NCBI GenBank assembly: GCA_964478975.1
Contig: CAYZKQ010000001.1
Coordinates: 1-53,016, forward strand
Origin: an uncultured Vicinamibacterales bacterium
GTDB taxonomy: Bacteria; Acidobacteriota; Vicinamibacteria; Vicinamibacterales; JAHECP01
Direction of reading: 5' to 3'
Length of the DNA stretch: 53,016 bases
The translations under genes were made by a program, and so were the position numbers. The notes below the pieces were generated by a model that worked only from the letters and a program-made list of their open reading frames with translations, did no database searches and was not told the DNA's origin. Positions 3,771 to 49,564 of the stretch are shown here, piece after piece. Position 1 is the first letter of the stretch, and every line of letters starts with the position of its first letter.

Positions 3771-4880
3771 TCACGCGGCGCGCGCCGCGAGGACGAGCTG
3801 CCGGATCATCCACGCGAGCGTCACGCCCGCGGCCGCGAGCAGGACGGCGAACAGCACGATCGCGCCCCACTGGGGTGCGACCCACGAGGCCGGCGCGAAG
3901 CCCGCCGCCTCGATGGCGGCCCGGCGGACGTGGTCCCGCGTCACCACCATGCAGGCGACCGAGAGCACGGCGGCGGCGGCGCCGCCACGGACGAACGGTG
4001 CGGGCCGCGGGGACGCCATGCCTCCGATCATCAACGCCACCGCGGCGACGCCAGCCGCGACGCCGGCGGCGAGGACGGCGCCAGCCGCCGGATCCGCGCC
4101 GCCCACGAGGTGCTCGATCGTCGGGCGCGGCAGCGCGCCCAGCCACCAGAAACCCACCAGAACATTCAGCATCGTGGCCGCGACGAACCACACGCTCCCG
4201 CGGCGCACGGCCCACGTGCCGAAGGCCGGCGCGCGCGACCGGACGCCGAGGCCGCCGAGCGCCGTCGCCAGGCCGGAGACCGCCACGGCGCCGAGCAGCA
4301 TGTGCAGAAACCGTGGCACGAGCGCCGGATCGCCCAGGGCGAGGTGCAGGCCACGCGGATCGGCGTGATACCGCGCGGCGAGCTCGTCGGGGCGCAGCAT
4401 CACGCTCATGTTGGTCGAGTAGATGACGCCGACGCCGATCAGGACGACCGCCACCGCGCCGGCGAGCGCGGCCGAGCAGCGGGACGACGACGTGCCCTGG
4501 AAGGCCAGCGCGTACGCTCCGTAGTAGGCCGCGATGAGCAAGAAGATCACCGACAGCCACGCCCACGCCATCACTACAGAGGAGGCGAAGAAGAGCCGCC
4601 CGTAGAGGACCTGGAGAAACAGCAGCGCGGCGACGCCGAGCGTGACCGTGGCGGCGAAGAGCACGGGCAGCGCCGCCGCCCACCGGCGGGCGAGCTCGCC
4701 GTCGTGGCCGTGGGGCGAACTCCGCGCGCGTACCCGGGCCACCGCGGCCAGGATGGCGCCACCGAGGAGCAGATTCATCGCCAGCGCGTGGAGCAGGAAC
4801 GTCAACAGAAGCCACGCCTGGAGGAACCACACCGGCGCGGGCAGCGGCAGGGGATCGGGTTGAGGCAGGCCGGGGGTCAT
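3771..4880 (-). CDS. Polytopic inner-membrane protein of unknown family (last gene of the por/nfn/cytochrome operon)
   Basis: ATG at 4880 overlaps the stop of the upstream gene (ATGA). It is 369 aa with roughly 9-10 hydrophobic segments (e.g. WFLQAWLLLTFLLHALAMNLLLGGAILAAV, VMAWAWLSVIFLLIAAYYGAYALAF). I could not assign any catalytic motif. Confidence 0.7.
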   Translation of the reverse strand: MTPGLPQPDPLPLPAPVWFLQAWLLLTFLLHALAMNLLLGGAILAAVARVRARSSPHGHDGELARRWAAALPVLFAATVTLGVAALLFLQVLYGRLFFASSVVMAWAWLSVIFLLIAAYYGAYALAFQGTSSSRCSAALAGAVAVVLIGVGVIYSTNMSVMLRPDELAARYHADPRGLHLALGDPALVPRFLHMLLGAVAVSGLATALGGLGVRSRAPAFGTWAVRRGSVWFVAATMLNVLVGFWWLGALPRPTIEHLVGGADPAAGAVLAAGVAAGVAAVALMIGGMASPRPAPFVRGGAAAAVLSVACMVVTRDHVRRAAIEAAGFAPASWVAPQWGAIVLFAVLLAAAGVTLAWMIRQLVLAARAA

Positions 4881-6595
4881 CGATCGCGCTCCTGGATCCG
4901 AGGCGCCTCGAGGCCGGCGAGGTACTCGGCGACCGCCCGCCGTTCGGCGTCGGTGCCCTCGAACGGGGGCATGAGCTCGCTGACCTCGGGCAGCCGGCCG
5001 ATCAGGTCGATGAGCTCGTCGAGCCGGCGGCCGCGGCCGGCGATCGGGAAGTCGCCGCCCGGGCCGTGGCACGCGCCGCAGTGCTCCTCGAAGTAGCGTT
5101 CCCCGAGCGTCGCCGCCGCCGCCCGCGCGGCACTCGCCCCGCCGAGGCTCGCCAGGTACGCCGCCAGCGCGCGGCGCTCCTCGGCGGTCCCGACGAAGGG
5201 GGGCATGCGGCGCCCGCGCCACGTCTCGAGCCGCAGGTCGGGATAATCCCAGCCCACCGGACGGCCGCCGGCGTCGACCGGGCGCGCGAGGCGCGCGAGC
5301 ACGCCGGAGAGCGCGGCCGCGCTCCGGCCACTCACAAGCTTGCGGATTCCGAGGTAGCCGTCGATCGTGTGGCACGCGGCGCACTCGCGCACGAAGAGTG
5401 CGCGTCCAGCCGCGAGCAGGCGGTCAGGGTCGCCGGTGTTCGTCGGTTCCACGCCCGGCCGCCCCCAGAGACTCGCGGCCAGTACCCCGCGCGCGTTCAG
5501 CGCGTCGATCGCGAACGGATCGGGCGCCACCCGGTCCCGGGCCGCGGTCGCGGGCGGTGGCAGGCGCACGCTGTTGACGAACATGTACCGGCCGATCACG
5601 TACGGCTTGCGCAGATCCTCGCGCACCCACTCGGCCCCGCCGACGGCGGCGAGGCCCAGGAGCATGAGCGAGGCGGCGGCGCCGCGCCCGTACCGCCGCG
5701 GACGCCCCCACACGATGGCGGCGGTTCCGGCCGCGAGGAGCGCGCACGCCGCCACGGCCACGCCCGCCGCGCGCTGCGCGACCGGATGGCCGCTCGCCGC
5801 CCCTTTCGCGATCGCACGCACGAGCGCCGCGAGGCCATCTCCGGTCACGCCGAAGATCTCCCGCACCGGCACGCCCGCCCCCGCGGCAGCGGTCAGGTAC
5901 CACACCGTCGCCGCCGGCAGGAGCACCGCGGCTGGGGCGATCCAGCCGAGGCCCGCGTCGCGCGCCACCCGGACTTTGAGCTCCGGGTCCCGCGTCCACG
6001 CGGCGACCGCCAGCGCGTAGAGCCCGGCGAGACCGACGGCCCCGAGCGTCCGGAGCACGAGCGCGGGCCAGTAGGTGGGGTTGAAAAACGCGTCCCACAG
6101 GCTGCGCGTCACGAGCCACCGCCCGGGCGTCAGCATGAAGGTCAGGATCCCGTTGATGATCGCCAGCGACGCCCAGGCGGCCGCGAAGTAGATCCAGCCG
6201 ACCGCCAGGTGCGTCCGGGGATCGAGTCGGTCCCACCCGTAGGCGTAGACCAGGGCCGCGGCGATCTCGACGACGAAGAACGTCCACTCGATCGCCCAGA
6301 CCCAGACGAAGGCGTTGATGAGCGCCGAGGTGGCCGCGGGCTGGACCAGGCCGATCGTGAACCAGATGCCGACGCCCGTCAGGGCGCCGAACACCAGCGT
6401 CAGGAGCACGAAGAAGCGGCTGAGCCGCCGGACGAACGCGAGGAGCGCCGCGTCCTCCCGCCGGCGCGCCCGGCGTTCGGCCAGGACGAGGAACAGGCCG
6501 CCGCCGACCGCGAAGTGCGACACGAAGACGTGGACGATCGCGACCCCCGCGATGAGCAAGCCTGCGGCCGGGAGCTCCCAGATCGGGTAGTTCAT
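4877..6595 (-). CDS. Cytochrome bd subunit-I (CydA)-like membrane domain fused to two C-terminal class-I c-type cytochrome domains
   Basis: ATG 6595 overlaps the porB stop (ATGA). The N-terminal polytopic part has IVHVFVSHF, AIEWTFFVVE and GWDRL, which align by eye with the E. coli CydA helix 1-4 core. The C-terminal part has two CxxCH sites (CAACH, CGACH). Each is followed by MPPF-GT-EERRA-A-YLA, indicating a tandem domain duplication. Confidence 0.8.
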   Translation of the reverse strand: MNYPIWELPAAGLLIAGVAIVHVFVSHFAVGGGLFLVLAERRARRREDAALLAFVRRLSRFFVLLTLVFGALTGVGIWFTIGLVQPAATSALINAFVWVWAIEWTFFVVEIAAALVYAYGWDRLDPRTHLAVGWIYFAAAWASLAIINGILTFMLTPGRWLVTRSLWDAFFNPTYWPALVLRTLGAVGLAGLYALAVAAWTRDPELKVRVARDAGLGWIAPAAVLLPAATVWYLTAAAGAGVPVREIFGVTGDGLAALVRAIAKGAASGHPVAQRAAGVAVAACALLAAGTAAIVWGRPRRYGRGAAASLMLLGLAAVGGAEWVREDLRKPYVIGRYMFVNSVRLPPPATAARDRVAPDPFAIDALNARGVLAASLWGRPGVEPTNTGDPDRLLAAGRALFVRECAACHTIDGYLGIRKLVSGRSAAALSGVLARLARPVDAGGRPVGWDYPDLRLETWRGRRMPPFVGTAEERRALAAYLASLGGASAARAAAATLGERYFEEHCGACHGPGGDFPIAGRGRRLDELIDLIGRLPEVSELMPPFEGTDAERRAVAEYLAGLEAPRIQERDR

Positions 6596-7476
6596 CGCGC
6601 GGCGTGGCTCAGGATGTCGTGCCAGCGCTGGTCGACCGCCTGGCGCACCTGTTCCAGGGCGTCCGGGTCGTTCACCAGGTCGCGGAAGCGACCCTGGCCT
6701 CGCAGATATTCCTCGATCGCTACCGGCGCCGGGTTGACGGTCAGCCGCCAGGTGCGGCCGTCCTCGACCTCGACGAGGGGGAAGACGCGCGCGGCGACGG
6801 CGAGGCGCACGTAGCGGATCGCGTGCTCCGAGGGAATCTTCCACCCGGGCGGACAGGGCGAGAGCAGGTGGATGAAGCGCGTCCCGGTGACCCGCCTGGC
6901 GCGCTGGAGTTTCGCCACCAGGTCGTCCGGATACGCGACCGTGGCCGTGGCGGCGTACGGGATCCGGTGCGCCACCATGATGGCGAGCAGGTCCTTCTTC
7001 GGCTGGGCCTTCCGCCCCGGCGTCGTGGTCGTCCACGCGCCCATCGGCGTGGCCGAGCTCCGCTGGATCCCGGTGTTCATGTAGGCTTCGTTGTCGTAAC
7101 AGATGTAGATGAAGTCCTCGTTCCGCTCGGCGGCGGCCGAGAGCGCCTGGATCCCGATGTCGAACGTGCCGCCGTCGCCGGCCCACGCGACGACCGTCGT
7201 CTCGCGGTCGCCCTTGAGGTCCAGCGCCGCGCGGACGCCCGACGCGGCGGCCGCCGCCGACGCGAACGGCGTGTGCATGACGGGCACCCCGGCGGCGCTG
7301 TAGGGCGACGGCCCGTCGATGATCGACCAGCAGCACGCCGGGATGACGAGCACGGTCCGGCGGCCGAGCGCCTTGAGGACGAGGCGCATGGCGAGGGCCG
7401 CGCCGCAGCCCGCGCACCCGAGGTGCCCGGGGGCGAGGATCTCGACGTCGGGAACGGCGTAGGTGGCCTGCGTCAT
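6592..7476 (-). CDS. porB: 2-oxoacid:ferredoxin oxidoreductase beta subunit (TPP-binding)
   Basis: TPP motif WAGDGGTFDIGIQALSAAAERNEDFIYICYDNEAYMNTG. Cys ligands occur in GCAGCG, PACCW and SPCPPGW. ATG 7476 overlaps the porA stop. Confidence 0.9.
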   Translation of the reverse strand: MTQATYAVPDVEILAPGHLGCAGCGAALAMRLVLKALGRRTVLVIPACCWSIIDGPSPYSAAGVPVMHTPFASAAAAASGVRAALDLKGDRETTVVAWAGDGGTFDIGIQALSAAAERNEDFIYICYDNEAYMNTGIQRSSATPMGAWTTTTPGRKAQPKKDLLAIMVAHRIPYAATATVAYPDDLVAKLQRARRVTGTRFIHLLSPCPPGWKIPSEHAIRYVRLAVAARVFPLVEVEDGRTWRLTVNPAPVAIEEYLRGQGRFRDLVNDPDALEQVRQAVDQRWHDILSHAAR

Positions 7477-8630
7477 GGCTTCAACCCCACCCACAGGCTG
7501 TCGTGCGACGGCCGGTCGTGCGCCCTAGCATCGTCGAGCACCGCGTCGAGCGTATCGGGCGTCACGTCGCGGCCGCCGAGGCCGGCGATATACGAGAACA
7601 CGACCGGCGCGGACGGCTGGTTGCAGAACGCCGCGCGGATCTCGGACGCCATGATGCCGCCGTGGCCGAACGAGAGGTTCCGGTCCACGACGGCGAGCTT
7701 GGCCGCCCGGCCGAGCAGGCGGCGCACGTGGTCGAAGGGGAAGGGCCGGAACAACCGGATCTTCGCCAGCCCGACGCGCTCGCCCCGCTGGCGCCGGGCG
7801 TCCACGACGCCGCGGGCCGTGCCGGCGATGGTCCCGGCGGTGACGAGGAGCAGGTCGGCGTCCTCGGCGCGGTAGGTGTCGAGGATCGGGTGATAGCGCC
7901 CGAAGCGCTCGCCGTACTCGCGGGCCGCCGCGTCGGCCACGCCCACCGCCGCCTGCAGGGCGCGCTCCATCCGGGCCCGCAGCTCCATGTAGCCGTCACC
8001 CGACGGGAGCCCGCCGAAGGCCCGCGGCTGGTCGACGTCGAGCGCGTAGGGCGGGGCGAACGGCGGCAGGTAGTCGTCGACGGCCGCCTGGTCGGGGATC
8101 GCGACCGGCTCTGAGGTGTGCGACAGGAAGAAGGCGTCAAGACACACCATCGCCGGCATCAGGACGCGCTCGGCCACCTTGAAGGCCTGGATGATCGTGT
8201 CGAGCACTTCCTGGTTGTTCTCGCAGTAGTACTGGATCCAGCCCGTGTCGCGCTGCGAGAGGCTGTCGGTCTGGTCGGCGAAGATGTTCCAGGGCGAGCC
8301 CAACGCCCGGTTCACGTTGGCCAGGACCACCGGCAACCGCGCGCCGGCGCACCAGTGCAGCATCTCGTGCATGTAGGCGAGGCCGTGCGAGGAGGTGGCG
8401 GTGAAGGCCCGGAGCCCCGCTTGCGACGCGCCGGCGCAGGTGGCCAGCGCGGAGTGCTCCGACTCGACGGCGACGAACCGCGCGTCGAGGCGCCCGTCGG
8501 CGCACATCTCCGAGAGCAGCTCGACGACCCCAGAGGACGGCGTGATGGGGTAGGCGGCGATCACGCGCGCCCGCGCGAGCTGCACCGCGTACGAAATCGC
8601 GTGCGTGCCCTCGATGACCTTCGTCGTCAT
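7473..8630 (-). CDS. porA: 2-oxoacid:ferredoxin oxidoreductase alpha subunit
   Basis: The N-terminus MTTKVIEGTHAISYAVQLARARVIAAYPITPSS is the classic PorA/VorA/KorA start. It is 385 aa. ATG 8630 overlaps the stop of the upstream fusion gene. Confidence 0.9.
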   Translation of the reverse strand: MTTKVIEGTHAISYAVQLARARVIAAYPITPSSGVVELLSEMCADGRLDARFVAVESEHSALATCAGASQAGLRAFTATSSHGLAYMHEMLHWCAGARLPVVLANVNRALGSPWNIFADQTDSLSQRDTGWIQYYCENNQEVLDTIIQAFKVAERVLMPAMVCLDAFFLSHTSEPVAIPDQAAVDDYLPPFAPPYALDVDQPRAFGGLPSGDGYMELRARMERALQAAVGVADAAAREYGERFGRYHPILDTYRAEDADLLLVTAGTIAGTARGVVDARRQRGERVGLAKIRLFRPFPFDHVRRLLGRAAKLAVVDRNLSFGHGGIMASEIRAAFCNQPSAPVVFSYIAGLGGRDVTPDTLDAVLDDARAHDRPSHDSLWVGLKP

Positions 8631-10339
8631 CGCGGTTCCTCGGGCAGAAGCGTCAGGGCGCCGCGGGGGCACTCGGCGGCGCAGATGCCGCAGCCCTTGC
8701 AGTGGGCGAGGTCGATCGTGTAGCGCCCGGCGCCGTCGCGCGCGACGGCAGCGTCGGGGCAGAACACCCGGCAGTTGTCGCAGCTCGTGCACGCCCCGCA
8801 CGTCACGCAGCGCCGCGCTTCGGCGACGGCCTGCGCCCACGCGAGCCCGCCCACCACCTCGGTGAAATCGCGGACGGCCTGCGCCGGCGGGACGAGCGGC
8901 GGCCGAACGCGGGGCGCGCGCGGGACATAGAAGAAGTTGAGGTCGCCCGGCCCGACCCGCACCGCGTCCGCGGCGTCGCCGAGCGCCCGACCCGCAAGCC
9001 ACGCGTCGATCGCCTCCGCCGCGCGCCGGCCCGACCCGATCGCCTCCACCACCGTGCCCGCCCCCGTCGCCGCGTCGCCGCCGGCGAAGACCGCCGCCCG
9101 GCTCGTGCGGCCCCAGCGGTCTGCCAGCAGACGTCCGCCCGCCGCCTCGACCAGGTCCGCGACCAGCGAGGTCTCCACCTCCTCGCCGATCGCGGTGAAC
9201 GCGTGGTCGGCGGCCAGCTCGAAGGTGCTCCCCGGGATGGGCTCCGGCCGGCGCCGGCCGGACGCGTCCGGTTCCCCGGGGCGCATCCGCTGGCACTCGA
9301 CGGCGGCGAGCCGTCCGCCCCGTTCGACGAAGCGCACCGGCGCCGCGTGGAAGATGAACGCGATCCCCTCAGCTTCCGCCTGCGCGATCTCGTCGGGGTG
9401 CGCCGGCATGTCCTCGCGGGCGCGCCGATACACGATCGTCGCCGCCGCCCCCAGCCGCACCGCCGCCCGGGCCGCGTCGAGGGCCGTGTTGCCGCCGCCC
9501 ACCACGACCGCGGGGCCGCCGAGCGAGGCCGCCGATCCCGCGTTGACCTGGCGCAGAAACTCGACGCCAGACCGGACGCCGTCCAGGTCTTCCCCAGGTA
9601 CCCCGACGCGCCGGGACCGCTGCGCCCCGATCGCCACGAACACCGCCTGGGAGTCCCGCAGCACGTCGAGCGGCCGCCCGGCCTCCACCCGGACGCCGCC
9701 GACGAAGCGGATCCCCATCGCCCGCAGCAGGTTGATCTCCTCGTCCAGCACCGCGCGCGGGAGGCGGTAGGCCGGAATTCCGTAGCGCAACATGCCGCCG
9801 GGCTCGGGCATCGCGTCGACGACCGTCACCCGGTGGCCGCGCCGGGCGAGGTGGTAGGCCGCCGTCAGGCCCGCCGGTCCCGCGCCCACGACCGCCACCG
9901 CGACACCCGACCCGCCGGCGACCTCCGCGCCGGGAAACCGCCGGCGTCTGGCTTCGTCGGCAATCGCACGCTCCACGGCATGGATCGCGACCGGCTCGTC
10001 GAACGCCAGGCGGTTGCACTCGCGCTCGCACGGGTGATAGCACACGCGCCCGCAGACGCCGGGCAGCGGGTTGTGCGCCCGGATGGTGCGCCAGGCCGCC
10101 TCGGCGTCGCCCGCGGCGGCGAGCGCGAGAAACGCCCGCACGTCGGTGCCCGCCGGGCAATCGAGATTGCAGGGCGAGGGCCGGGTCACATAGACCGGCC
10201 GGAACGTGCGCCAGTGGCCCGTCTGGAGCTCCCGGGTGCTCCGGAGCGAGACGGACATCGGCGGCCCCGGCGCGACCTCGTCGACCGGCCCGATCCGAAC
10301 CGCCGCCCGTGCCGCCGCGTCGTTCACCGTGTCTGCCAT
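8627..10339 (-). CDS. GltD/NfnB-family NAD(P)H flavoprotein fused to a PorD-type 2x[4Fe-4S] ferredoxin domain
   Basis: The N-terminus has QTGHWRTFRPVY, resembling the PorD TGxWRxFxP arm. Next comes the GltD Fe-S region (CNLDCP...NPLPGVCGRVCYHPCERECNR), with FAD fold VVGAGPAGL and NAD(P)H fold VVGGGNTALD. The C-terminus has CVTCGACTSCDNCRVFCP and CKGCGICAAECP ferredoxin motifs. It is 570 aa. Confidence 0.85.
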   Translation of the reverse strand: MADTVNDAAARAAVRIGPVDEVAPGPPMSVSLRSTRELQTGHWRTFRPVYVTRPSPCNLDCPAGTDVRAFLALAAAGDAEAAWRTIRAHNPLPGVCGRVCYHPCERECNRLAFDEPVAIHAVERAIADEARRRRFPGAEVAGGSGVAVAVVGAGPAGLTAAYHLARRGHRVTVVDAMPEPGGMLRYGIPAYRLPRAVLDEEINLLRAMGIRFVGGVRVEAGRPLDVLRDSQAVFVAIGAQRSRRVGVPGEDLDGVRSGVEFLRQVNAGSAASLGGPAVVVGGGNTALDAARAAVRLGAAATIVYRRAREDMPAHPDEIAQAEAEGIAFIFHAAPVRFVERGGRLAAVECQRMRPGEPDASGRRRPEPIPGSTFELAADHAFTAIGEEVETSLVADLVEAAGGRLLADRWGRTSRAAVFAGGDAATGAGTVVEAIGSGRRAAEAIDAWLAGRALGDAADAVRVGPGDLNFFYVPRAPRVRPPLVPPAQAVRDFTEVVGGLAWAQAVAEARRCVTCGACTSCDNCRVFCPDAAVARDGAGRYTIDLAHCKGCGICAAECPRGALTLLPEEPR

Positions 10340-10347
10340 GACGGCCT

Positions 10348-10932
10348 CTATCGCCGCGCGCGGGCCGCAGAGGCCAGCGCGGGACGCCCCCGCACGGCGC
10401 CGAACGCTTCCCGCGCCGCGGCCTGATTCGCCTCCGGCTTGACCGGCACCAGCTCGGGAATGGCCTCGAGCAGGGTCTCGAGGCGGACGAGCCGCGTGAC
10501 CGCCGCGAACGCGCCGGCCATCGCCGTGTTGACGATGGGGTTCGTGCGCGTGCCGAGGCCGTGGGTGAGCGCGATCCCCGTCGCGTCGCACGTCGCCACG
10601 CTGAAGTCGTCCGGCAGGCCCAGCGCGTCGGGCCCCCGGCTGGTGTTCACGACGATCCACCCGCCCGACTTCAGCCCGGCGGTCACGTCGGTCGCCTCCA
10701 GCAAGCCGGCGTCGAGCACGATCACGTGGTCCGGCTCGTAGACCTGGTAGTGCGCCGTGATGGGCCCCTGGTCCGCGCGCAGAAACGCCGCCACTGGCGC
10801 GCCGGTCCGTTCCGCCCCGAACGCGGGAAACGCCTGCACCTGCCAGCCCTCGCGGAACAGCGCCGTCGCCAGCAGCTTCGACGCCATCACCGCGCCCTGA
10901 CCGCCGCGCCCGTGCACCCGAATCGCCACCAC
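10348..10932 (-). CDS. porG: 2-oxoacid:ferredoxin oxidoreductase gamma subunit
   Basis: Starts VAIRVHGRGGQGAVMASKLLA (GRGGQG motif) and is 194 aa, the typical gamma subunit size. GTG start lies 3 nt after the stop of the upstream gene. Confidence 0.9.
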   Translation of the reverse strand: MVAIRVHGRGGQGAVMASKLLATALFREGWQVQAFPAFGAERTGAPVAAFLRADQGPITAHYQVYEPDHVIVLDAGLLEATDVTAGLKSGGWIVVNTSRGPDALGLPDDFSVATCDATGIALTHGLGTRTNPIVNTAMAGAFAAVTRLVRLETLLEAIPELVPVKPEANQAAAREAFGAVRGRPALASAARARR

Positions 10933-10935
10933 GGA

Positions 10936-12354
10936 TCACCACCCGTCGGGAAAGCCGTCCCGCAGATACCGGTCGATCGCCCGCGCCGCCCGCCGGCCGG
11001 CCCCCATCGCCGAAATCACCGTCGCGCCGCCCGTGACGATGTCGCCCCCGGCGAAGACGCCTTTCTTATAGGTCGCGCCCGTCCGCTCGTCGGCCTCGAT
11101 GTAGCCGCGGCGGTTCACCCGGAGGTCCGGCGTCGTGGACCGGATGAGCGGGTTCGCGCCCTGGCCGACCGCGAACACCACCGTGTCGACCTCGAGGTCG
11201 AACTCCGACCCGGGCACCGGGACGGGGCTCCGGCGGCCGGAGGCGTCCGGCTCGCCGAGCGCCATCCGGATGGCGCGCATCGCGCGCACGCGCGACCGCT
11301 CGTCGCCGAGGATCGCGACCGGCGCCGCCAGCAGGATGAACTCGACCCCTTCTTCTTCGGCGTGCGCGATCTCTTCCTCGCGCGCCGGCATTTCGTCGCG
11401 GGAACGCCGGTAGACCAGATACGCGTGCTCGGCGCCGAGCCGGAGCGCGGTCCGGACCGCGTCCATCGCCGTGTTGCCCCCGCCCACCACCGCGACCCGG
11501 CGCCCCCGGACGATGGGCGTGTCAGTTTCCGGAAAGCGGTAGGCCTGCATCAGGTTCGACCGCGTCAGGAACTCGTTCGCCGAGTAGACCCCGACCAGGT
11601 TGATGCCGGGAATCTCGGGGAAGAACGGCAGGCCGGCGCCCGTGCCGATGAACACCGCCTCGTACCCGAGCTCGCTCATGAGCTCGTCGACCGTGAACGT
11701 CCGCCCGATGACGTGGTTCGTCCGGATCTCCACGCCCAGGCGCTTGAGGGCCTCGATCTCGCGCTCGACGATCGCTTTCGGCAGCCGGAACTCGGGGATC
11801 CCGTACATCAGGACGCCCCCCGGCTTGTGGAGCGCCTCGAAGATCGTCACGCTGTGGCCCAGCCTGGCCAGGTCCGCCGCGACCGTCAGGCCCGCCGGAC
11901 CGGATCCCACGACCGCCACGCGGTGTCCCGTCGGCGGCGGCGGCGGCCCGGTGTCCGACCAGTTCATCGCCGCGGCATAGTCCGCGACGAACCGCTCGAG
12001 CCGCCCGATGGCGACGGGCTCGAACTTCACGCCCAGCGTGCATCGTTTCTCGCACTGGTCTTCCTGCGGGCACACGCGCCCGCAGATGGCCGGGAGCACG
12101 TTCTTCTCGTAGACCGTGCGAAACGCCGCCTCGAACGCGCGCTCGGCCACCTGCTGGACGAACCGGGGAATGTCGATTTCCACGGGACACCCGGCGACAC
12201 ACGGCTGGTTCTTGCAGAGGATGCAGCGATTCGCTTCCTGCACGGCGAGGTCCGGGGTGTACCCGGTGGCGACTTCCTCGAACCGCCGCCGCCGCACCTC
12301 GGGGTCGAGGCACGGCATCGGGGTTTTCGTCTTCTGCCCGATCTTCTTCGCCAC
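10936..12354 (-). CDS. NADPH-dependent glutamate synthase small-chain-like oxidoreductase (NfnB/SudA/GltD family)
   Basis: Fe-S motifs CILCKNQPCVAGCP and CGRVCPQEDQCEKRC. Dinucleotide folds VVGSGPAGL and VVGGGNTAMD. It is 472 aa. Confidence 0.9.
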   Translation of the reverse strand: MAKKIGQKTKTPMPCLDPEVRRRRFEEVATGYTPDLAVQEANRCILCKNQPCVAGCPVEIDIPRFVQQVAERAFEAAFRTVYEKNVLPAICGRVCPQEDQCEKRCTLGVKFEPVAIGRLERFVADYAAAMNWSDTGPPPPPTGHRVAVVGSGPAGLTVAADLARLGHSVTIFEALHKPGGVLMYGIPEFRLPKAIVEREIEALKRLGVEIRTNHVIGRTFTVDELMSELGYEAVFIGTGAGLPFFPEIPGINLVGVYSANEFLTRSNLMQAYRFPETDTPIVRGRRVAVVGGGNTAMDAVRTALRLGAEHAYLVYRRSRDEMPAREEEIAHAEEEGVEFILLAAPVAILGDERSRVRAMRAIRMALGEPDASGRRSPVPVPGSEFDLEVDTVVFAVGQGANPLIRSTTPDLRVNRRGYIEADERTGATYKKGVFAGGDIVTGGATVISAMGAGRRAARAIDRYLRDGFPDGW

Positions 12355-12357
12355 GGT

Positions 12358-13209
12358 TCACCTCGGCATCAGCGCCGGCGTCTGCGGGGGAGCCTGGCAC
12401 CGCTCGAGCGCCAGGCGCTCCTGCTCGCGATAGGCCGTGAGGCGCGCGGCGAGCTCGGCGAAATCCACCTGGTGACCGTCGAACTCCGGCCCGTCGACAC
12501 AGACGAACTTCGGCCGCCCGCCCACCGTCACCCGGCAGCCGCCGCACATGCCGGTGCCGTCGATCATGATGGGGTTGAGGCTGACGATCGTCTTGAGGCC
12601 CAGCGGCCGCGTCAGCTCGCACACCGCGCGCATCATCGGGAGCGGCCCGATGGCGACCACCTCGTCGAAGCGACAGCCCTCGCGCAGCAACGCGCGCAGC
12701 GCGTCAGGGACGAGGCCGGGCATCCCGTACGACCCGTCGTCCGTCGTCACGATGACGCGGTCGGCCACGGCCCGCATCTCCGCTTCGAGAATCACGAGCG
12801 CGCGGGAGCGGGCCCCGATGACCGCCGTCACGCGGCCGCCGGCCGCCTTGAAGCCGCGCGCGATGGGGTAGGCCACGGCCGCGCCGATGCCGCCCCCGAT
12901 CGCGCACACCGAGCGGCCCGGCGCGATCTGCGTCGGCTGGCCCAACGGCCCGGCGATGTCGAGAATCGTGTCGCCCGGCTCGAACGCGTTCAGCTCGCGC
13001 GTCGTCTTGCCGACACCCTGGACGATGAGCGCGATCGCCCCGCTCGGCGGGTCCGCGTCGGCGATCGTGAGGGGAATGCGCTCCCCCGTTTCCCGGAGAC
13101 GGACGATCACGAACTGGCCGGGGCGGCGTTTGCGGGCGATGTGCGGGGCGTCGATCCAGAAGCGGACGATGTCGGGTGCAAGCACCTGCTTGCTGAGGAT
13201 ACGGTGCAC
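12358..13209 (-). CDS. Ferredoxin-NADP+ reductase-like FAD/NAD(P)- and [2Fe-2S]-binding protein (NfnA/SudB/PyrK family)
   Basis: VHRILSKQVLAPDIVRFWIDAP aligns with the usual N-terminus of NfnA/PyrK. C-terminal cluster motif GTGMCGGCRV...FVCVDGPEF. GTG 13209 was chosen as the start because the upstream part of the ORF is low-complexity. Confidence 0.8.
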   Translation of the reverse strand: MHRILSKQVLAPDIVRFWIDAPHIARKRRPGQFVIVRLRETGERIPLTIADADPPSGAIALIVQGVGKTTRELNAFEPGDTILDIAGPLGQPTQIAPGRSVCAIGGGIGAAVAYPIARGFKAAGGRVTAVIGARSRALVILEAEMRAVADRVIVTTDDGSYGMPGLVPDALRALLREGCRFDEVVAIGPLPMMRAVCELTRPLGLKTIVSLNPIMIDGTGMCGGCRVTVGGRPKFVCVDGPEFDGHQVDFAELAARLTAYREQERLALERCQAPPQTPALMPR

Positions 13210-13407
13210 GAGGCCCCCCGGGGTCGCTGGACAGGCGGGCGCCGGACACCCGGCGCCTCCCTTCCCGCCACTCTTCCGGGCAGCAAGCGGGATACCAGGT
13301 GGGGGCGGGGGGACGGCCGGCCCGGCCAGGCCAGCGCGGGGCTGTCGGCCCGCCGAAGGCGCCCAGGCGTGCCCGTGCCCGGGCGCCGCTGATTCTTTCG
13401 GCGTCGC

Positions 13408-13469
13408 GTGCCGGCTTTCCGGCACCCCGGATCGGAACGTTTGCGCGGGCGGGCGCGGGTTTTCCCGCG
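13408..13469 (-). terminator. Two GC hairpins downstream of the M20 gene (possible terminator / operon boundary)
   Basis: CGCGGG-TTTT-CCCGCG lies at 13454-13469, 5 nt after the stop codon. GTGCCGG-CTTT-CCGGCAC lies at 13408-13425. Neither has a U-tract. Confidence 0.3.
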
Positions 13470-15711: not shown

Positions 15712-16185
15712 ATGCTGCGATTGTCCAAGCGTGCCGATTACGCGCTCATTGCGATGCGGCATCTGGCCCTCAACGCGGACCGCGGCTGGGCCAGCGCCCG
15801 GGAGATCGCCGAGGCGTACCACGTCCCGCTGGAGCTGCTGGCGAAGGTGCTGCAGCGGCTGGTGCGGAAAGGGCTGCTGGCCTCGCACCAGGGGGTCCAC
15901 GGGGGGTACGAGCTGGCGCGCCCGGCGACGCACATCTCGGTGGCGCAGGTCATCGAGGCGATCGACGGGCCGCTCACCATGACGGCGTGTTCGGAGGCGG
16001 ACGATTCGTGCGACCAGTTTCCACACTGCAACATCCGCGACCCGCTCTGGCGCATCAAGGACCGGCTGGTCGAGGCGCTCTCGACGTGCTCGATCCAGGA
16101 GATGGCGACCGAGAGCGCGCCGGCGCCGGCGGGCGGGGCGGCACCGGTGCGGGTCGTGATGGGGCCGTCGAAGGCGACGGCGTGA
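15712..16185 (+). CDS. Rrf2-family Fe-S-binding transcriptional regulator (IscR/SufR-like)
   Basis: The N-terminus MLRLSKRADYALIAMRHLA is the Rrf2 signature. Cluster ligands CSEADDSCDQFPHC. It is the first gene of the suf operon. Confidence 0.9.
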   Translation: MLRLSKRADYALIAMRHLALNADRGWASAREIAEAYHVPLELLAKVLQRLVRKGLLASHQGVHGGYELARPATHISVAQVIEAIDGPLTMTACSEADDSCDQFPHCNIRDPLWRIKDRLVEALSTCSIQEMATESAPAPAGGAAPVRVVMGPSKATA

Positions 16186-16200
16186 GGGAGCGGACGGGTC

Positions 16201-16530
16201 ATGATCCAGGTGAGCGAGAACGCGTCGCGGCAGATCGTCAAGCTCAAGGCGAAGCAGCAGTTGCCGCCGTCGGGCGGCTTGCGCGTCGGGGTGAAGGCCG
16301 GCGGCTGTTCGGGCTTCGAGTATGTCTTTGCGTGGGAGCCGGCTCCCCGCGACACGGATATCGTGGTGGAAGGGTCGGGCGGCGCGCGGGTGTTCGTCGA
16401 CCCGAAGAGTCTCCGGCTGCTCGCGGGCACGGTGCTGGACTACGACACGAGTCTGCTCAGCCGCGGGTTCGTCCTGGCGAATCCGAACGCCAAGAGCACG
16501 TGCGGGTGCGGGCAGTCGTTCAGCGTCTGA
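16201..16530 (+). CDS. sufA: A-type Fe-S cluster carrier (HesB/IscA/SufA family)
   Basis: GGCSGFEY motif and C-terminal CGCGQSF. It is 109 aa. Confidence 0.88.
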
Positions 16531-16546
16531 CGGGACGGAGAAGACG

Positions 16547-17992
16547 ATGAGCACAGCGGTTCGGACGATCGAGGAACTGGCCACGCGGGAATACAAGTAC
16601 GGGTTCTACACGCCGGTCGAGGAGGACAAGGTTCCGCCGGGGTTGAACGAGGACGTCATCCGGCTCATCTCCGCGAAGAAGCAGGAGCCGGACTGGTTGC
16701 TCGAGTGGCGGCTCAAGGCCTACCGGGCGTGGCTCACCATGGCGGAGCCGCGGTGGGCGAACATCACTTACGGGCCGATCGACTACCAGGCGATCAGCTA
16801 CTACTCGGCGCCCAAGCGCCGGCCGACCTACAACAGCCTGGACGAGGTCGACCCGGAGATTCTGCGGACCTTCGAGAAGCTCGGCATTCCCCTCGAGGAG
16901 CAGAAGCGGCTGGCGGGGGTGGCGGTCGACGCGGTGTTCGATTCGGTGTCGGTGGCCACGACGTTCCGGGAGAAGCTCGCCGAGCTGGGGATCATCTTCT
17001 GTTCGTTCTCGGAGGCGGTGCGCGAGCATCCGGACCTGGTGCGGCAGTATCTGGGGTCTGTAGTCCCCTACACGGACAACTTCTTCGCGGCGCTCAACTC
17101 CGCCGTCTTCAGCGACGGGTCGTTCGCCTACATCCCGAAGGGCGTGCGCTGTCCGATGGAGCTGTCCACTTACTTCCGCATCAACGCGATGAACACCGGC
17201 CAGTTCGAGCGCACCCTGATCGTCGCGGACGAGGGCGCGTCGGTGAGCTACCTCGAGGGCTGCACGGCGCCGATGCGCGACGAGAACCAGCTCCACGCGG
17301 CGGTGGTCGAGCTGGTCGCGCTGGACGAGGCGACCATCAAGTACTCGACCATCCAGAACTGGTATCCCGGGGACAAGCAGGGCCAGGGCGGCATCTACAA
17401 TTTCGTGACCAAGCGCGGCAAGTGTCAGGGGCGGCGGTCGAAGATCACGTGGACGCAGGTCGAGACCGGCTCGGCCATCACGTGGAAGTACCCGAGCTGT
17501 CTGCTCATCGGCGACGAGTCCGTCGGCGAGTTCTATTCGGTCGCCACGGTGAACCACTACCAGCAGGCCGACACGGGCACGAAGATGATCCACGTGGGCC
17601 GGCGCACGAAGAGCACGATCGTCTCGAAGGGCATTTCGGCGGGGCACGGCCAGAACACCTACCGCGGGCTCGTCCGCATCGGCAAGCACGCCCAGTACGC
17701 GCGGAACTACTCGCAGTGCGACTCGCTGCTCATCGGGGACCAGTGCGGGGCGCACACCTTCCCGTACCTGGACATCCGCAACAGCACGGCGCGGGTCGAG
17801 CACGAGGCGTCGACGTCGAAGATCGGGGAGGACCAGATCTTCTACTGCCGCCAGCGCGGCCTCGGGACCGAGGACGCGGTCAACCTGATCGTCAGCGGCT
17901 TCTGCAAGGAAGTCTTCCGGGAGCTGCCGATGGAATTCGCCGTCGAGGCCCAGAAGCTGCTGAGCGTGAGCCTGGAAGGGAGTGTCGGATAA
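16547..17992 (+). CDS. sufB: Fe-S cluster assembly scaffold SufB
   Basis: 481 aa with highly conserved SufB blocks ([51 protein letters not shown]). Confidence 0.95.
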
Positions 17993-17998
17993 CGCATC

Positions 17999-18766
17999 AT
18001 GCTGGAGATTCGAGATCTGAAGGCGTCGGCCGAGGGCCGCGAGATCCTGCACGGCGTCAGCCTGTCGGTGCGGGCGGGCGAAGTCCACGCGATCATGGGC
18101 CCGAACGGCTCGGGCAAGAGCACGCTCGCGCGGGTGCTGGCGGGACACCCGGGCTACGAGGTGACCGCCGGGACGGTGCTCTACGAGGGGCGGGACCTGC
18201 TGGCGATGGACCCGGAAGAGCGCGCGCGCGAGGGGCTGTTCATGGCGTTCCAGTACCCGGTGGAGATCGCCGGGGTGAACAACGCCTACTTCTTGAAGGC
18301 GGCGCTCAACGCGCTCCGCAAGCACCGCGGCGAGCCGGAGGTGGACGCCATCGAGTTCATGACCCTCATCCGCGAAAAGGCGAAGCTGCTGGAGCTCGAC
18401 CCCGCGATGCTCAACCGCCCGGTCAACGAGGGGTTTTCGGGCGGCGAGAAGAAGCGGAACGAGATCTTCCAGATGCTGGTGCTCGAGCCGAAGCTCGCGA
18501 TCCTCGACGAGACGGATTCTGGCCTCGACATCGACGCCCTCAAGGTGGTGGCCAACGGCGTCAACGCCATGCGGAGCCCCAGCCGGGCGATCGTGGTGGT
18601 GACGCACTACCAGCGGCTGCTCAACTACATCGTGCCCGACATCGTCCACGTGCTCGTCGACGGGCGCATCGTCCGCTCGGGCGACAAGACCCTGGCCCTC
18701 GAGCTCGAAGAGAAAGGGTACGGCTGGGTCGAGGCGGAAGCGGCTGGCGCCGCCGCGCGCAGCTAG
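17999..18766 (+). CDS. sufC: Fe-S cluster assembly ATPase SufC
   Basis: Walker A GPNGSGKST, FSGGEKKRNEI, LAILDETDSGLD. Confidence 0.95.
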   Translation: MLEIRDLKASAEGREILHGVSLSVRAGEVHAIMGPNGSGKSTLARVLAGHPGYEVTAGTVLYEGRDLLAMDPEERAREGLFMAFQYPVEIAGVNNAYFLKAALNALRKHRGEPEVDAIEFMTLIREKAKLLELDPAMLNRPVNEGFSGGEKKRNEIFQMLVLEPKLAILDETDSGLDIDALKVVANGVNAMRSPSRAIVVVTHYQRLLNYIVPDIVHVLVDGRIVRSGDKTLALELEEKGYGWVEAEAAGAAARS

Positions 18767-18774
18767 GGGGAGCG

Positions 18775-20100
18775 ATGGCGACGTTCGTCGAGGCGGCCCG
18801 CGACGCCTATCTCGCCGAGTACGCGCGCGCCCGCCAGGCCGACCGCCTCGGGCCGGCCTGGCTGGCCGAGGTGCGCGCGCGCGCCGTCCGCGCCTTCGAG
18901 CAGCTCGGTTTCCCCACGACCAGGGACGAGGAGTGGCGCTTCACGAACATCGCGCCCATCACCACGCGCGTGTTCGTCCCGGCGGATCCGGCGGGCCGGC
19001 GCGCCGTGACGCGGGAGGACGTGGCCCGTGTGACCCTCCCGGGCGCCGGCCGCGTCCGGGTCGTCTGCGTCAACGGCCGCTATGCCCCGGAACTCTCTGA
19101 CCTGGACGGGCTGCCGCAGGGCGTCGAAGTGCGCGGGCTCCGGGAGGTCCTCGAGGCCGAACCGGCCCGCCTGCAGCCCTGGTTGGCCCAGGTCGCCGGC
19201 TTCCGCAGCCACGCCTTCGCTGCGCTCAACACGGCGCTCTTTGACGACGGCGTGTTCGTCTTCGTGCCGCCGCACGCCGTCGTCGACGAGGCGATCGAGG
19301 TGGTGTCGGTCACCTTCGCCGGCGGCGCCGACGTGGTGGCCCACCCGCGGGTGCTCGCGGTGGCGGCCGAGGACAGTCAGGTGCGGCTGGTCGAGCAGCA
19401 CGTGGGCGTCGGCGACGGCGTCTACTTCGCCAACCCGATCAGCGAGGTGGTGGTCGGCGACCACGCCGTCGTGGACCACTACCGCGTCCAGCGGGAGGCC
19501 GTCGGCGCGTTCCACCTCGGGGGCCTGCACGCGCGCGTCGGGCGCGCCGCGAGCTTCACCTCGCACGCGGTGTCGCTGGGGGCAGCGCTCGCCCGGCACG
19601 ACCTCTCGGCCGAGCTCGGCGGCGAGGGCGGCGAGTGCACCCTGAACGGCCTGTACCTCGCCGACGGCGACCGGCTGGTGGACCACCACACGACGATCGT
19701 GCACGCGCAGCCGCACTGCGACAGCCACGAGGTCTACAAGGGGATCCTGGCGGGTCGCGCGCAAGGCGTGTTCAACGGGAAAATCGTCGTCCGGCCCGGG
19801 GCGCAGAAGACCGACGCCAAGCAGACCAACCGGGCCCTGCTGCTCTCCGACGAGGCGCAGATCAACACCAAGCCGCAGCTCGAGATCTTCGCCGACGATG
19901 TCAAGTGCACCCACGGGGCGGCGGTGGGGCAGCTCGACGAGGACGCGATCTTCTATCTCCGCTCGCGGGGCCTGGGCCTCCGGGAGGCGCGCCGGCTGCT
20001 CGTGCAGGCGTTCGCGGGCGACATCCTCAACCGTGTGCGCCTCGAGGGACTGCGCCACGCGCTCGAGGCGGCCATGCTGCGCCTGCTGCCGGAGCCATGA
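18775..20100 (+). CDS. sufD: Fe-S cluster assembly protein SufD
   Basis: 441 aa with the SufD C-terminal beta-helix blocks ([34 protein letters not shown]). Its stop overlaps the sufS start. Confidence 0.92.
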
Positions 20101-49479: not shown

Positions 49480-49564
49480 GGGCGTCGTGGCTCCAGTGTA
49501 CCACGCGCCGCCGGCCGGCGCCGACGGTTTATGATGGTCCCGAACGCTCCACGAAACGGCTGCC

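What the first reader, a model, noticed from the sequence alone, without database searches (positions are those of the whole stretch)
8627..10339. PorD ferredoxin subunit appears split around, and fused to, a GltD-like NAD(P)H flavoprotein
The 570-aa product starts with QTGHWRTFRPVY, which resembles the TGxWRxFxP arm that precedes the cluster domain in archaeal-type PorD. It continues as a GltD/NfnB-like module (NPLPGVCGRVCYHPCERECNR, VVGAGPAGL, VVGGGNTALD). It ends with a canonical 2x[4Fe-4S] ferredoxin domain (CVTCGACTSCDNC...CP, CKGCGICAAECP) immediately before porA. The first GltD cluster motif is reduced to CNLDCP, versus CILCKNQPCVAGCP in the neighbouring NfnB-like paralogue, so two Cys ligands seem to be missing. 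Together this implies direct intramolecular electron transfer from the TPP/Fe-S centres to FAD and then NAD(P)+, without diffusible ferredoxin.
Basis: partly seen in the sequence, partly recalled or inferred. Interest (0 to 1): 0.7.

Follow-up and report, generated by a model that had tools for sequence, protein, structure and literature searches.

The report
PorD split by an NfnB-like flavoprotein
The ferredoxin (delta) subunit of a pyruvate/2-oxoacid oxidoreductase has a whole NADP-binding iron-sulfur flavoprotein inserted into it, so the enzyme probably hands its electrons straight to NADP+ instead of to free ferredoxin; the family is widespread and catalogued, but I found no study of it.

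Summary
The ORF is real: 8627-10339, minus strand, 570 aa, with its stop overlapping the porA start. The split-PorD reading holds.

- **PorD halves.** Residues 34-51 and 517-570, joined in silico, align end to end with the solved Methanosarcina PorD. They score 87-92 bits on the PorD profile, against 62-66 bits for controls.
- **Fold.** Deleting the arm from the AlphaFold input removes the C-terminal beta-strand. This indicates that the arm pairs with the ferredoxin domain.
- **The "missing" cysteines.** They are relocated, not lost. Residues 490-516 (RDFTEV...EARRCVTCG) are the N-terminal quarter of the NfnB Fe-S domain, moved behind the flavoprotein. C511 and C514 align with T. maritima NfnB Cys39 and Cys42. 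StnC and Bfu-type NfnA have the same segment order.
- **Gene context.** The gene sits in the porD slot (porG-X-porA-porB). The window has no other ferredoxin ORF. Among related loci, the arm occurs only in POR-linked genes.
- **Family.** It passes the NCBIfam PRK12771 cut-off. About 95 of the top 150 clusters at 50% identity share the architecture.
- **Function (inferred, untested).** A ferredoxin-independent 2-oxoacid:NADP+ oxidoreductase.

The parts
8627..10339 (-). Whole fusion gene (570 aa plus stop): PorD with an inserted, circularly permuted NfnB/GltD-like Fe-S flavoprotein.
   Evidence: NCBIfam PRK12771 scores 571.1 bits (cut-off 516), with residues 34-567 matching profile positions 27-565 of 566.
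10187..10240 (-). PorD N-terminal arm, residues 34-51 (STRELQTGHWRTFRPVYV). It forms beta-strand 46-50 in the model.
   Evidence: It aligns with M. acetivorans PorD (9bt4_G) residues 12-29, STLANKTGGWRNFRPVYI. It adds about 25 bits on the PorD profiles compared with shuffled or reversed controls. R44 and P48 are invariant; T40, G41 and W43 are at least 90% conserved.
9935..10177 (-). NfnB/GltD Fe-S domain, C-terminal three quarters (residues 55-135). Residues aligning with the T. maritima NfnB ligands: C57 and C108 for the distal cluster; C61, C100, C104 and E123 for the proximal cluster.
   Evidence: It matches Pfam Fer4_20 profile positions 30-111 of 113 only. It aligns with T. maritima NfnB 4ylf_B. 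The ligand numbering comes from PMC7596348.
8975..9922 (-). FAD and NADP(H) Rossmann domains (residues 140-455). They include the YRR motif (Y304-R306), R192 (equivalent to P. furiosus NfnB R201) and H314 (in place of P. furiosus NfnB R333).
   Evidence: The meaning of YRR is taken from PMC7596348. The R333 criterion is taken from PMC12221290.
8873..8974 (-). Linker (residues 456-489), shared with StnC and Bfu-type NfnA.
   Evidence: The alignment with 9bov_A runs colinearly across this stretch. N468, F470, Y471, F472 and R477 are conserved.
8792..8872 (-). Relocated N-terminal quarter of the NfnB Fe-S domain (residues 490-516, RDFTEVVGGLAWAQAVAEARRCVTCGA). It supplies C511 and C514 to the distal cluster.
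   Evidence: Placing it in front of residues 55-140 raises the Fer4_20 score from 68.8 to 98.4 bits and extends profile coverage from 31-111 to 3-111. The rearranged sequence is colinear with 4ylf_B residues 14-125, so C511 aligns with Cys39 and C514 with Cys42. C511 and C514 are invariant.
8630..8791 (-). PorD 2x[4Fe-4S] core (residues 517-570): C517/C520/C523/C527 and C547/C550/C553/C557, plus the C-terminal strand 562-566.
   Evidence: PorD_KorD profile positions 24-78 of 78 and PorD_Arch 32-84 of 85. It aligns with 9bt4_G residues 32-84. All eight Cys are invariant.
10348..10932 (-). porG (gamma subunit), directly upstream.
   Evidence: PF01558. TIGR02175 scores 191 bits (cut-off 81).
7473..8630 (-). 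porA (alpha subunit). Its start overlaps the stop of the fusion gene.
   Evidence: POR_N plus PFOR_II. PorA_Arch scores 460.7 bits, below its cut-off of 550, so the substrate is not assigned.
6592..7494 (-). porB (beta subunit, binds TPP).
   Evidence: TPP_enzyme_C. The best NCBIfam hits are the VOR beta and PorB models, both just below their cut-offs.
10936..12354 (-). Canonical nfnB in the same operon (lineage-specific neighbour).
   Evidence: TIGR01316 scores 599.5 bits (cut-off 471.75). It has a full Fer4_20 match, profile 2-112, and reads MPAREEE at the position where the fusion protein aligns DMPAHPDE with P. furiosus NfnB EMTAREEE around R333.
12358..13425 (-). nfnA-like gene. This is the longest ORF; the real start is probably near 13206.
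   Evidence: NF004862 scores 389 bits and matches from residue 74 onwards. The orthologue in L081 is 281 aa.

Best explanation
**What it is.** The gene encodes the delta (PorD) subunit of an archaeal-type four-subunit pyruvate/2-ketoisovalerate-family oxidoreductase (porG-X-porA-porB). A complete NfnB/GltD-like iron-sulfur flavoprotein has been inserted into it, two to three residues before the first cluster cysteine.

**How the insert is arranged.** The insert is circularly permuted. Its chain starts at the PCxxxCP half of the NfnB Fe-S domain, runs through the FAD and NADP(H) domains and a linker, and ends with the helix-plus-CxxC segment that normally opens NfnB. PorD keeps its own two ends. 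The arm (residues 34-51) folds back as strand beta-1 onto the C-terminal 2x[4Fe-4S] core (residues 517-570).

**The junction.** C511 and C514 complete the NfnB distal cluster. C517, C520 and C523, only two residues further on, bind a PorD cluster.

**Inferred electron path.** TPP on PorA/B, then the PorB [4Fe-4S], then the two PorD clusters, then the NfnB distal cluster (C511, C514, C57, C108), then the proximal cluster (C61, C100, C104, E123), then FAD, then NADP+.

**Predicted reaction.** 2-oxoacid + CoA + NADP+ gives acyl-CoA + CO2 + NADPH. No diffusible ferredoxin is needed. With a donor couple near -500 mV and NADP+ at -320 mV (textbook values), the reaction is effectively irreversible.

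**Shown versus inferred.** Shown: domain homologies, the permutation, the insertion point, conservation, gene context and the arm-to-ferredoxin pairing in the model. Inferred: cluster occupancy, inter-cluster distances, substrate, NADP+ reduction and ferredoxin independence.
For: **PorD halves.**
- The in-silico join of residues 28-54 with 517-570 scores 91.6 bits on TIGR02179 (cut-off 60.05), covering profile positions 6-78 of 78. On PorD_Arch it scores 90.1 bits.
- On TIGR02179 the controls score as follows: ferredoxin core alone 61.9, native upstream sequence 61.6, reversed arm 66.0, shuffled arm 65.5. All of these start at profile position 23-27.
- Apart from PRK12771, the N-terminal 75 aa alone hit only PorD-type families among 18,950 models: PorD_Arch E = 0.003, PorD_KorD 0.011, VorD 0.045.
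- The join aligns with solved PorD 9bt4_G residues 12-84 (E = 5e-20) and with the oxalate oxidoreductase delta subunit 5c4i_B residues 243-310.

**Permutation.**
- The Fer4_20 score rises from 68.8 to 98.4 bits, with full profile coverage, only when residues 484-516 are placed in front of 55-140. A shuffled control scores 68.7.
- The rearranged sequence is colinear with T. maritima NfnB residues 14-125.
- The native chain is colinear with Bfu-type NfnA and StnC: 9bov_A, 9n5u_A and 8oh5_C.

**Structure.**
- AlphaFold2 gives pLDDT 91.8 and pTM 0.88, with strands at 46-50 and 562-566.
- In the model of residues 52-570, all other strands persist. Strand 562-566 disappears, and the pLDDT of the last residue block falls from 84 to 68.

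**Conservation.** All 16 ligands, the arm and YRR are invariant or nearly so in 117 sequences.

**Context.**
- The gene occupies the porD slot.
- No other CxxCxxCxxxCP ORF exists in the 53 kb window.
- L081 has the same synteny. In L082 porG is fused in front of the arm. L084 has porG-X-porA-porB.
- Among the 80 genome loci scanned, the arm occurs only in POR-linked genes (L001-L006, L010, L012, L020). It is absent from NfnB genes paired with nfnA and from NuoG-, NuoF- and HdrA-type fusions.

**Flavin site.** H314 replaces P. furiosus NfnB R333, which the literature treats as specific to bifurcating NfnB.
Against: - There are no biochemical data for any member of the family, as far as the searchable literature shows.
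Sulfur-to-sulfur and inter-cluster distances, and the position of the module relative to PorA/B, are therefore unmeasured.
- The intact protein, scored as it stands, falls below the PorD_KorD cut-off (56.1 against 60.05 bits).
- A canonical nfnAB pair in the same operon needs a ferredoxin-type partner. This hints that the PorD clusters may still talk to other proteins.
- E123, the glutamate ligand associated with the low-potential proximal cluster of bifurcating NfnB, is retained.
- The substrate is unassigned: the PorA and PorB scores are below the equivalog cut-offs.
Confidence: 0.7

Rival explanations
1. Dual-outlet enzyme. The PorD clusters stay accessible and still reduce a diffusible ferredoxin, or dock the co-encoded NfnAB. 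The inserted flavoprotein is then a second, possibly regulated, exit to NADP+ rather than the only one.
For: nfnA and nfnB abut porG in the window and in L081, and Nfn needs a ferredoxin-type partner. POR next to nfnAB also occurs without the fusion, in L061. DsrL shows that an NfnB-like protein with a C-terminal ferredoxin domain can dock on a partner enzyme (PMC7596348).
Against: No ferredoxin gene is present in the 53 kb window. Most lineages with the fusion lack nfnAB nearby (L001-L005, L010, L012, L082, L084). In sequence, the junction places the NfnB distal-cluster ligands two residues from those of a PorD cluster.
Confidence: 0.15
2. Reverse or bifurcating operation. NADPH reduces the FAD, which bifurcates. 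The low-potential electron passes through the glutamate-ligated proximal cluster and PorD into PorAB to drive pyruvate synthesis from acetyl-CoA and CO2. The high-potential electron leaves via NfnA.
For: The proximal-cluster glutamate (E123) and R192 (equivalent to P. furiosus NfnB R201) are conserved. An nfnA gene lies in the same operon.
Against: H314 replaces R333, and there is no NfnB-type N-terminal extension. nfnA is followed by its own canonical nfnB. Most fusion-bearing loci have no nfnA. StnC, which shares the same segment order, is reported to be non-bifurcating (PMC10482914).
Confidence: 0.07
3. An independent DsrL-like or Fnor-like NAD(P)H:acceptor oxidoreductase that merely neighbours POR genes and is not a POR subunit.
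For: The generic database names are 'NAD(P)-binding protein' and 'glutamate synthase beta subunit-like'. Stand-alone NfnB-like Fnor enzymes exist (PMC12221290).
Against: The arm is PorD-specific and found only in POR-linked genes. There is no separate porD. The gene start and stop are tightly coupled to porG and porA. Natural porG fusions exist (P0118, P0120 and others).
Confidence: 0.03

Closest known systems
PorD, the delta subunit of archaeal-type four-subunit pyruvate/2-ketoisovalerate:ferredoxin oxidoreductases (solved example: M. acetivorans, PDB 9bt4 chain G)
   Same: It has the N-terminal arm ST..TGxWRxFRPVY and the 2x[4Fe-4S] core. Its gene lies between porG and porA. The predicted beta-1/C-terminal strand pairing is present.
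   Different: About 465 residues of flavoprotein are inserted between the arm and the first cluster Cys. The intact protein scores below the PorD_KorD cut-off.
NfnB / GltD-type Fe-S flavoproteins (T. maritima NfnB 4ylf_B, P. furiosus NfnI-B 5jca_L) and stand-alone NfnB-like Fnor enzymes
   Same: It has ligands for two [4Fe-4S] clusters, including the proximal-cluster glutamate. It also has FAD, the YRR NADP(H) motif and the R201 equivalent.
   Different: The first quarter of the Fe-S domain is moved behind the flavoprotein. His replaces R333. There is no adjacent nfnA of its own. It scores below the TIGR01316 cut-off (314.8 against 471.75).
StnC (8oh5_C) and Bfu-type NfnA (9bov_A, 9n5u_A); NCBIfam PRK12814
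   Same: These are the best sequence and fold matches. They have the same segment order: PCxxxCP, then FAD/NADPH, then linker, then EAxRCxxCG. The module is again inserted into another Fe-S protein and wired to its clusters.
   Different: The host is NuoG-like, with a 2Fe-2S domain in front, not PorD. In StnC the proximal-cluster fourth ligand is Lys, whereas here it is Glu.
DsrL, the NAD(P)H:acceptor oxidoreductase of DsrAB
   Same: It is an NfnB-like body with a C-terminal 2x[4Fe-4S] ferredoxin domain that feeds a partner enzyme (PMC7596348).
   Different: DsrL keeps the normal N-terminal order and has no PorD arm. Its authors explicitly excluded look-alikes linked to POR genes, which describes this family.
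NAD(P)+-linked 2-oxoacid oxidoreductases: Euglena/Cryptosporidium pyruvate:NADP+ oxidoreductase, Azoarcus phenylglyoxylate:NAD+ oxidoreductase PadEFGHI, Azoarcus KorABC (from my own knowledge, not verified here)
   Same: The overall logic matches: a TPP/Fe-S 2-oxoacid oxidoreductase joined to a flavoprotein that reduces a pyridine nucleotide. PadE, PadF, PadG and PadI are distant hits of PorG, the ferredoxin core, PorA and PorB.
   Different: The flavoprotein modules are of other types and are appended or separate, not inserted into PorD. No PadH-type model hit the flavoprotein part at E <= 1e-8.

Membership tests
NCBIfam NF009410 / PRK12771 'NAD(P)-binding protein' | Whole-protein score at or above the curated cut-off, with full-length coverage | tested here: met
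   571.1 bits against a cut-off of 516. Residues 34-567 match profile positions 27-565 of 566.
PorD (TIGR02179 PorD_KorD; NF040684 PorD_Arch) | Contiguous match above the curated cut-off | tested here: not met
   The intact protein scores 56.1 bits (cut-off 60.05) and matches profile positions 24-78 only. PorD_Arch scores 64.8 bits (cut-off 120).
PorD (TIGR02179 PorD_KorD; NF040684 PorD_Arch) | N-terminal arm plus 2x[4Fe-4S] core, once the insert is removed | tested here: met
   The in-silico join scores 87.0-91.6 bits and covers profile positions 6-78 of 78. Controls score 61.6-66.0 bits. It aligns end to end with 9bt4_G residues 12-84.
PorD (TIGR02179 PorD_KorD; NF040684 PorD_Arch) | Gene lies with porG, porA and porB, and there is no other delta subunit | tested here: met
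   The order is porG-X-porA-porB with an overlapping stop and start. No other ferredoxin-motif ORF is in the window. The same holds in L081, L082 and L084. The rest of the genome is not visible.
PorD (TIGR02179 PorD_KorD; NF040684 PorD_Arch) | Physical assembly with PorA, PorB and PorG | not testable with these tools
   Only single-chain prediction was available, and it returns no coordinates.
NfnB (bifurcating large subunit of NfnAB) | TIGR01316 score above the cut-off | tested here: not met
   314.8 bits against a cut-off of 471.75. The neighbouring gene at 10936-12354 scores 599.5.
NfnB (bifurcating large subunit of NfnAB) | Extended N-terminus, Arg333, and nfnA immediately upstream (criteria of PMC12221290) | tested here: not met
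   The N-terminal segment is relocated. H314 stands at the R333 position. The gene directly upstream is porG.
NfnB/GltD Fe-S domain (Pfam Fer4_20) | Eight ligands for two [4Fe-4S] clusters | tested here: met
   All are present, but in permuted order: C511, C514, C57 and C108 for one cluster; C61, C100, C104 and E123 for the other (numbering). Cluster occupancy itself was not tested.
DsrL | Criteria of PMC7596348: canonical N-terminal ferredoxin domain, a dsrAB-containing genome, and no link to POR genes | tested here: not met
   The N-terminal order is permuted. The gene lies inside a por operon. No dsrAB was seen among the window genes I annotated.
Glutamate synthase small subunit (GltD proper) | TIGR01317 or TIGR01318 above the cut-off, and a gltB partner | tested here: not met
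   182.8 against 447.7 bits and 267.3 against 482.95 bits. No gltB lies beside it.

The most novel reading that the evidence does not exclude
The inserted NfnB-like flavin is a bifurcating or confurcating site hard-wired to a 2-oxoacid oxidoreductase. [quoted passage not shown] Run in the other direction, pyruvate oxidation would be confurcated with NADH to give 2 NADPH. All of this would occur in aerobic soil bacteria.
Probability: 0.06. Interest if true: 0.85.

Novelty: new variant of a known kind. Interest (0 to 1): 0.5.

Why it matters
If the inference holds, a large and phylogenetically broad group of bacteria oxidise pyruvate or branched-chain 2-oxoacids with an oxygen-sensitive-type TPP/Fe-S enzyme that makes NADPH directly. 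The group includes Acidobacteriota such as Vicinamibacterales, Actinomycetota and Rhodocyclaceae. These enzymes would bypass both ferredoxin and the pyruvate dehydrogenase complex, which changes how redox budgets are read from such genomes. At present these genes are annotated as 'NAD(P)-binding protein' or 'glutamate synthase beta subunit-like'.

The topology is also instructive. One flavoprotein cassette with the same permuted order is inserted into two unrelated Fe-S hosts, NuoG-like and PorD. In both hosts a cluster is completed by cysteines from both sides of the junction. This offers a clear natural template for wiring modular redox enzymes.

Tried and rejected
- **Short-query protein search.** A 60-aa query across the arm/PCxxxCP junction, meant to count family members, gave only 2 candidates. 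The word index does not suit short queries, and a capped search was lost.
- **Genome-contig scan.** The closest lineages therefore came from look-ups by exact protein instead.
- **Model coordinates.** They are not exposed, so no Cys-to-Cys or inter-cluster distances could be measured. I used an arm-deletion model as an indirect test.
- **Cluster C6 ligands in StnC.** I looked for an explicit ligand list in the StnC paper and its supplements and found none. The Bfu NfnABC paper did not give one either.
- **PadH as a homologue of the flavoprotein module.** Rejected: no hit at E <= 1e-8. I did not confirm that a PadH model exists in the library.
- **Literature searches for a characterised example.** Searches found none. 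A Nitrotoga preprint was a false lead.
- **Andersson and Roger 2002 on GltD fusions.** The paper is not held.
- **Longer ORF.** The 771-aa ORF listed from a GTG at 10942 was rejected as the gene. It overlaps porG in another frame, and homologues start about 28 residues before the arm.
- **GC3-based gene calling of the rest of the window.** It was too ambiguous at 72% GC to be useful.


Full report
**Observation**

The minus-strand ORF at 8627-10339 encodes 570 aa. Its ATG at 10339 follows a GAGG, 6 nt after the porG stop. Its TGA overlaps the porA ATG as ATGA. The gene order on the minus strand is nfnA-like, nfnB, porG, this gene, porA, porB, and then a gene fusing a cytochrome bd-like domain to cytochrome c domains.

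The TGHWR motif lies at residues 40-44, not at the start of the protein. The neighbouring NfnB does carry CILCKNQPCVAGCP, where this protein has only CNLDCP.

**Family**

- NCBIfam places the whole protein in PRK12771, 'NAD(P)-binding protein', at 571 bits against a cut-off of 516, with end-to-end coverage.
- A search of 5.8 billion proteins returned thousands of hits. The best 120 are almost all about 560 aa long and 50-80% identical. Named ones come from Vicinamibacterales, other Acidobacteria and Betaproteobacteria. JGI calls some of them '2-oxoacid:acceptor oxidoreductase delta subunit'.
- Among the best 150 representatives of 50%-identity clusters, 64 carry the strict arm-to-PCxxxCP junction together with CxxCGxCxxCxxCxxxCP. 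About 30 more carry arm variants such as TGxWK, TGxWS or TGxWG. At least 11 have PorG fused in front.
- In an alignment of 117 members, the arm and 16 cluster ligands are invariant or at least 90% conserved. The conserved arm positions are T40, G41, W43, R44, R47 and P48.

**Is the N-terminus a PorD arm?**

The intact protein matches PorD profiles only over positions 24-78 of 78. I joined residues 28-54 or 28-56 to residues 517-570 in silico.

- The join scores 87.0-91.6 bits on PorD_KorD, covering positions 6-78. On PorD_Arch it scores 85-90 bits.
- On PorD_KorD the ferredoxin core alone scores 61.9 bits, with its native upstream sequence 61.6, with the reversed arm 66.0 and with a shuffled arm 65.5.
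- Apart from PRK12771, the first 75 residues alone hit only PorD, PorD_KorD and VorD models among 18,950 families.
- Against the PDB, the join aligns without gaps with M. acetivorans PorD (9bt4_G residues 12-84, E = 5e-20). The arm reads STRELQTGHWRTFRPVYV against STLANKTGGWRNFRPVYI. The join also aligns with the delta domain of oxalate oxidoreductase.

The arm is not generic to GltD-like proteins. Among the 80 related genome loci scanned, it occurs only where POR genes are adjacent:

- L001-L005, L010 and L012 have the order porG-porA-porB-fusion.
- L006 and L020 are the other two arm-bearing loci.
- L007 and L013 have degenerate arms beside divergent 2-oxoacid oxidoreductase genes.
- The arm is absent from NfnB genes paired with nfnA and from modules embedded in NuoG-, NuoF- or HdrA-like proteins.

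**Structure**

AlphaFold2 with the 117-sequence alignment gives pLDDT 91.8 and pTM 0.88. The model has a strand at residues 46-50 in the arm and another at 562-566 at the C-terminus. Coordinates are not exposed, so I modelled residues 52-570 with the same alignment. Every other strand is retained. The 562-566 strand is no longer assigned, and the pLDDT of the last residue block falls from 84 to 68.

The simplest reading is that the arm strand pairs with the C-terminal strand. This is the beta-1/beta-4 pairing of clostridial-type ferredoxins; the join aligns its PVYV with the AYVI of 1fca.

**The "missing" cysteines**

Pfam Fer4_20 matches residues 55-133 only from profile position 30. Placing residues 484-516 in front of residues 55-140 raises the score from 68.8 to 98.4 bits and extends coverage to profile positions 3-111 of 113. 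A shuffled prefix scores 68.7 bits and the native N-terminus 68.4 bits.

The rearranged sequence is colinear with T. maritima NfnB residues 14-125. The alignment gives these equivalences:

| This protein | T. maritima NfnB |
|---|---|
| RDFTEVVGGL | RNFEEVALGY |
| C511 | Cys39 |
| C514 | Cys42 |
| C57 | Cys47 |
| C61 | Cys51 |
| E123 | the Glu of LERF |

Löffler et al. report that Cys39, Cys42, Cys47 and Cys100 bind the distal cluster, and that Cys51, Cys90, Cys96 and Glu117 bind the proximal cluster (PMC7596348).

The ligands are therefore relocated, not lost: the NfnB module is circularly permuted. The same order is seen in the best PDB matches, Bfu-type NfnA (9bov_A, 9n5u_A) and StnC (8oh5_C). 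These are colinear with the native chain through ...EAxRCxxCG. In StnC the GltD-like region is reported to hold two [4Fe-4S] clusters in a linear chain leading to the host's clusters (PMC10482914).

**Anatomy**

| Residues | Segment |
|---|---|
| 34-51 | PorD arm |
| 55-135 | NfnB Fe-S domain, second part |
| 140-455 | FAD and NADP(H) domains |
| 456-489 | linker |
| 490-516 | NfnB Fe-S domain, first part |
| 517-570 | PorD ferredoxin core |

The run C511-x2-C514-x2-C517-x2-C520-x2-C523 straddles the junction. Its first two cysteines belong to the NfnB distal cluster and the next three to a PorD cluster. From my memory of the D. africanus PFOR structure, the first CxxCxxC run binds the outermost cluster. 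If so, the chain would be linear. I did not verify this here.

**Flavin site**

- Y304-R305-R306 are invariant. They correspond to the NfnB YRR motif that accommodates the phosphate of NADP(H).
- R192 aligns with P. furiosus NfnB R201.
- H314 replaces R333. Huang et al. find R333 conserved in bifurcating NfnB but not in non-bifurcating Fnor enzymes (PMC12221290).
- The upstream paralogue has Arg at that position, passes the NfnB model, and follows an nfnA gene.

**Context**

- No other ferredoxin-motif ORF exists in the window.
- L081 (69% identity) has identical synteny, including nfnAB and the cytochrome gene.
- L082 encodes a fusion of PorG, arm, flavoprotein and ferredoxin core, followed by porA and porB.
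- L084 has porG-X-porA-porB.

The protein therefore stands in for PorD.

**Mechanism (inferred)**

Electrons from the TPP intermediate pass through the PorB cluster, the two PorD clusters, the NfnB distal and proximal clusters and FAD to NADP+. The result would be a ferredoxin-independent and effectively irreversible 2-oxoacid:NADP+ oxidoreductase. The substrate is not assigned: the PorA and PorB scores fall just below the POR and VOR equivalog cut-offs.

The rival readings are a dual outlet to ferredoxin or NfnAB, a bifurcating or reverse mode of operation, and an unrelated neighbour. They are weighed in the rival-explanations section of this report.

**Comparison and novelty**

The architecture is catalogued and abundant. 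[quoted passage not shown] Such genes have therefore been seen before. I found no description or biochemical study of them.

Functional analogues with other flavoprotein modules exist, namely PNO, PadEFGHI and KorABC. I cite these from my own knowledge. I rate the finding as a new variant of a known kind and of moderate interest.

Noticed in passing
window 10936-13425 (-): A canonical nfnA-nfnB pair abuts porG in the same operon. The nfnB passes TIGR01316 and has Arg at the P. furiosus NfnB R333 position. The operon therefore encodes two NfnB-type modules. The arrangement is conserved in L081 but absent from most other fusion-bearing loci.
   Followed up: partly
window 3771-6595 (-): Directly downstream of porB lies a gene that fuses a cytochrome bd subunit-I-like membrane domain to two cytochrome c domains (PF01654, PF00034, PF13442). 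It is followed by a membrane protein of about 370 aa with no Pfam hit. Both are syntenic in L081. Any link to the POR operon is unknown.
   Followed up: partly
window 15712-20100 (+): An Fe-S assembly cluster lies just beyond the operon: an Rrf2/IscR-like regulator, a HesB/IscA-like protein, and SufB, SufC and SufD. These names come from reading the translations only; none was run through a family search.
   Followed up: no
L082 6214-8469; also P0120 and P0131/P0134/P0136 and others: In some lineages PorG is fused in front of the arm, giving proteins of about 750 aa (gamma, arm, flavoprotein, ferredoxin core). This leaves a three-gene or two-gene POR.
   Followed up: partly
L001-L005, L010, L012: In Actinomycetota and one Rhodocyclaceae MAG, the fusion gene follows porB (porG-porA-porB-fusion) instead of sitting between porG and porA.
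   Followed up: partly
L007 7001-8599; L013 7001-8560: These family members have a degenerate arm with no TGxWR; only ...RPVYxDLLPPC remains. They lie next to much more divergent OFOR alpha and beta genes (26-30% identity to the window's PorA and PorB).
   Followed up: no
L008, L011, L024, L028 (NuoG-like); L018, L029-L031, L033, L043 (NuoF-like); L017, L019, L021, L069: NfnB/GltD-like modules with the reduced PCxxxCP motif are embedded in several different large Fe-S proteins. This suggests a reusable insertion cassette. I did not check whether each one is permuted in the same way.
   Followed up: no
window 47458-49692 (-) and 49535-50872 (+): A molybdopterin oxidoreductase and an NDH-2-type NADH dehydrogenase are present. 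The rest of the window encodes CarboxypepD_reg/OMP-barrel proteins and S9 and S15 peptidases. This fits an aerobic soil Acidobacteriota genome.
   Followed up: no
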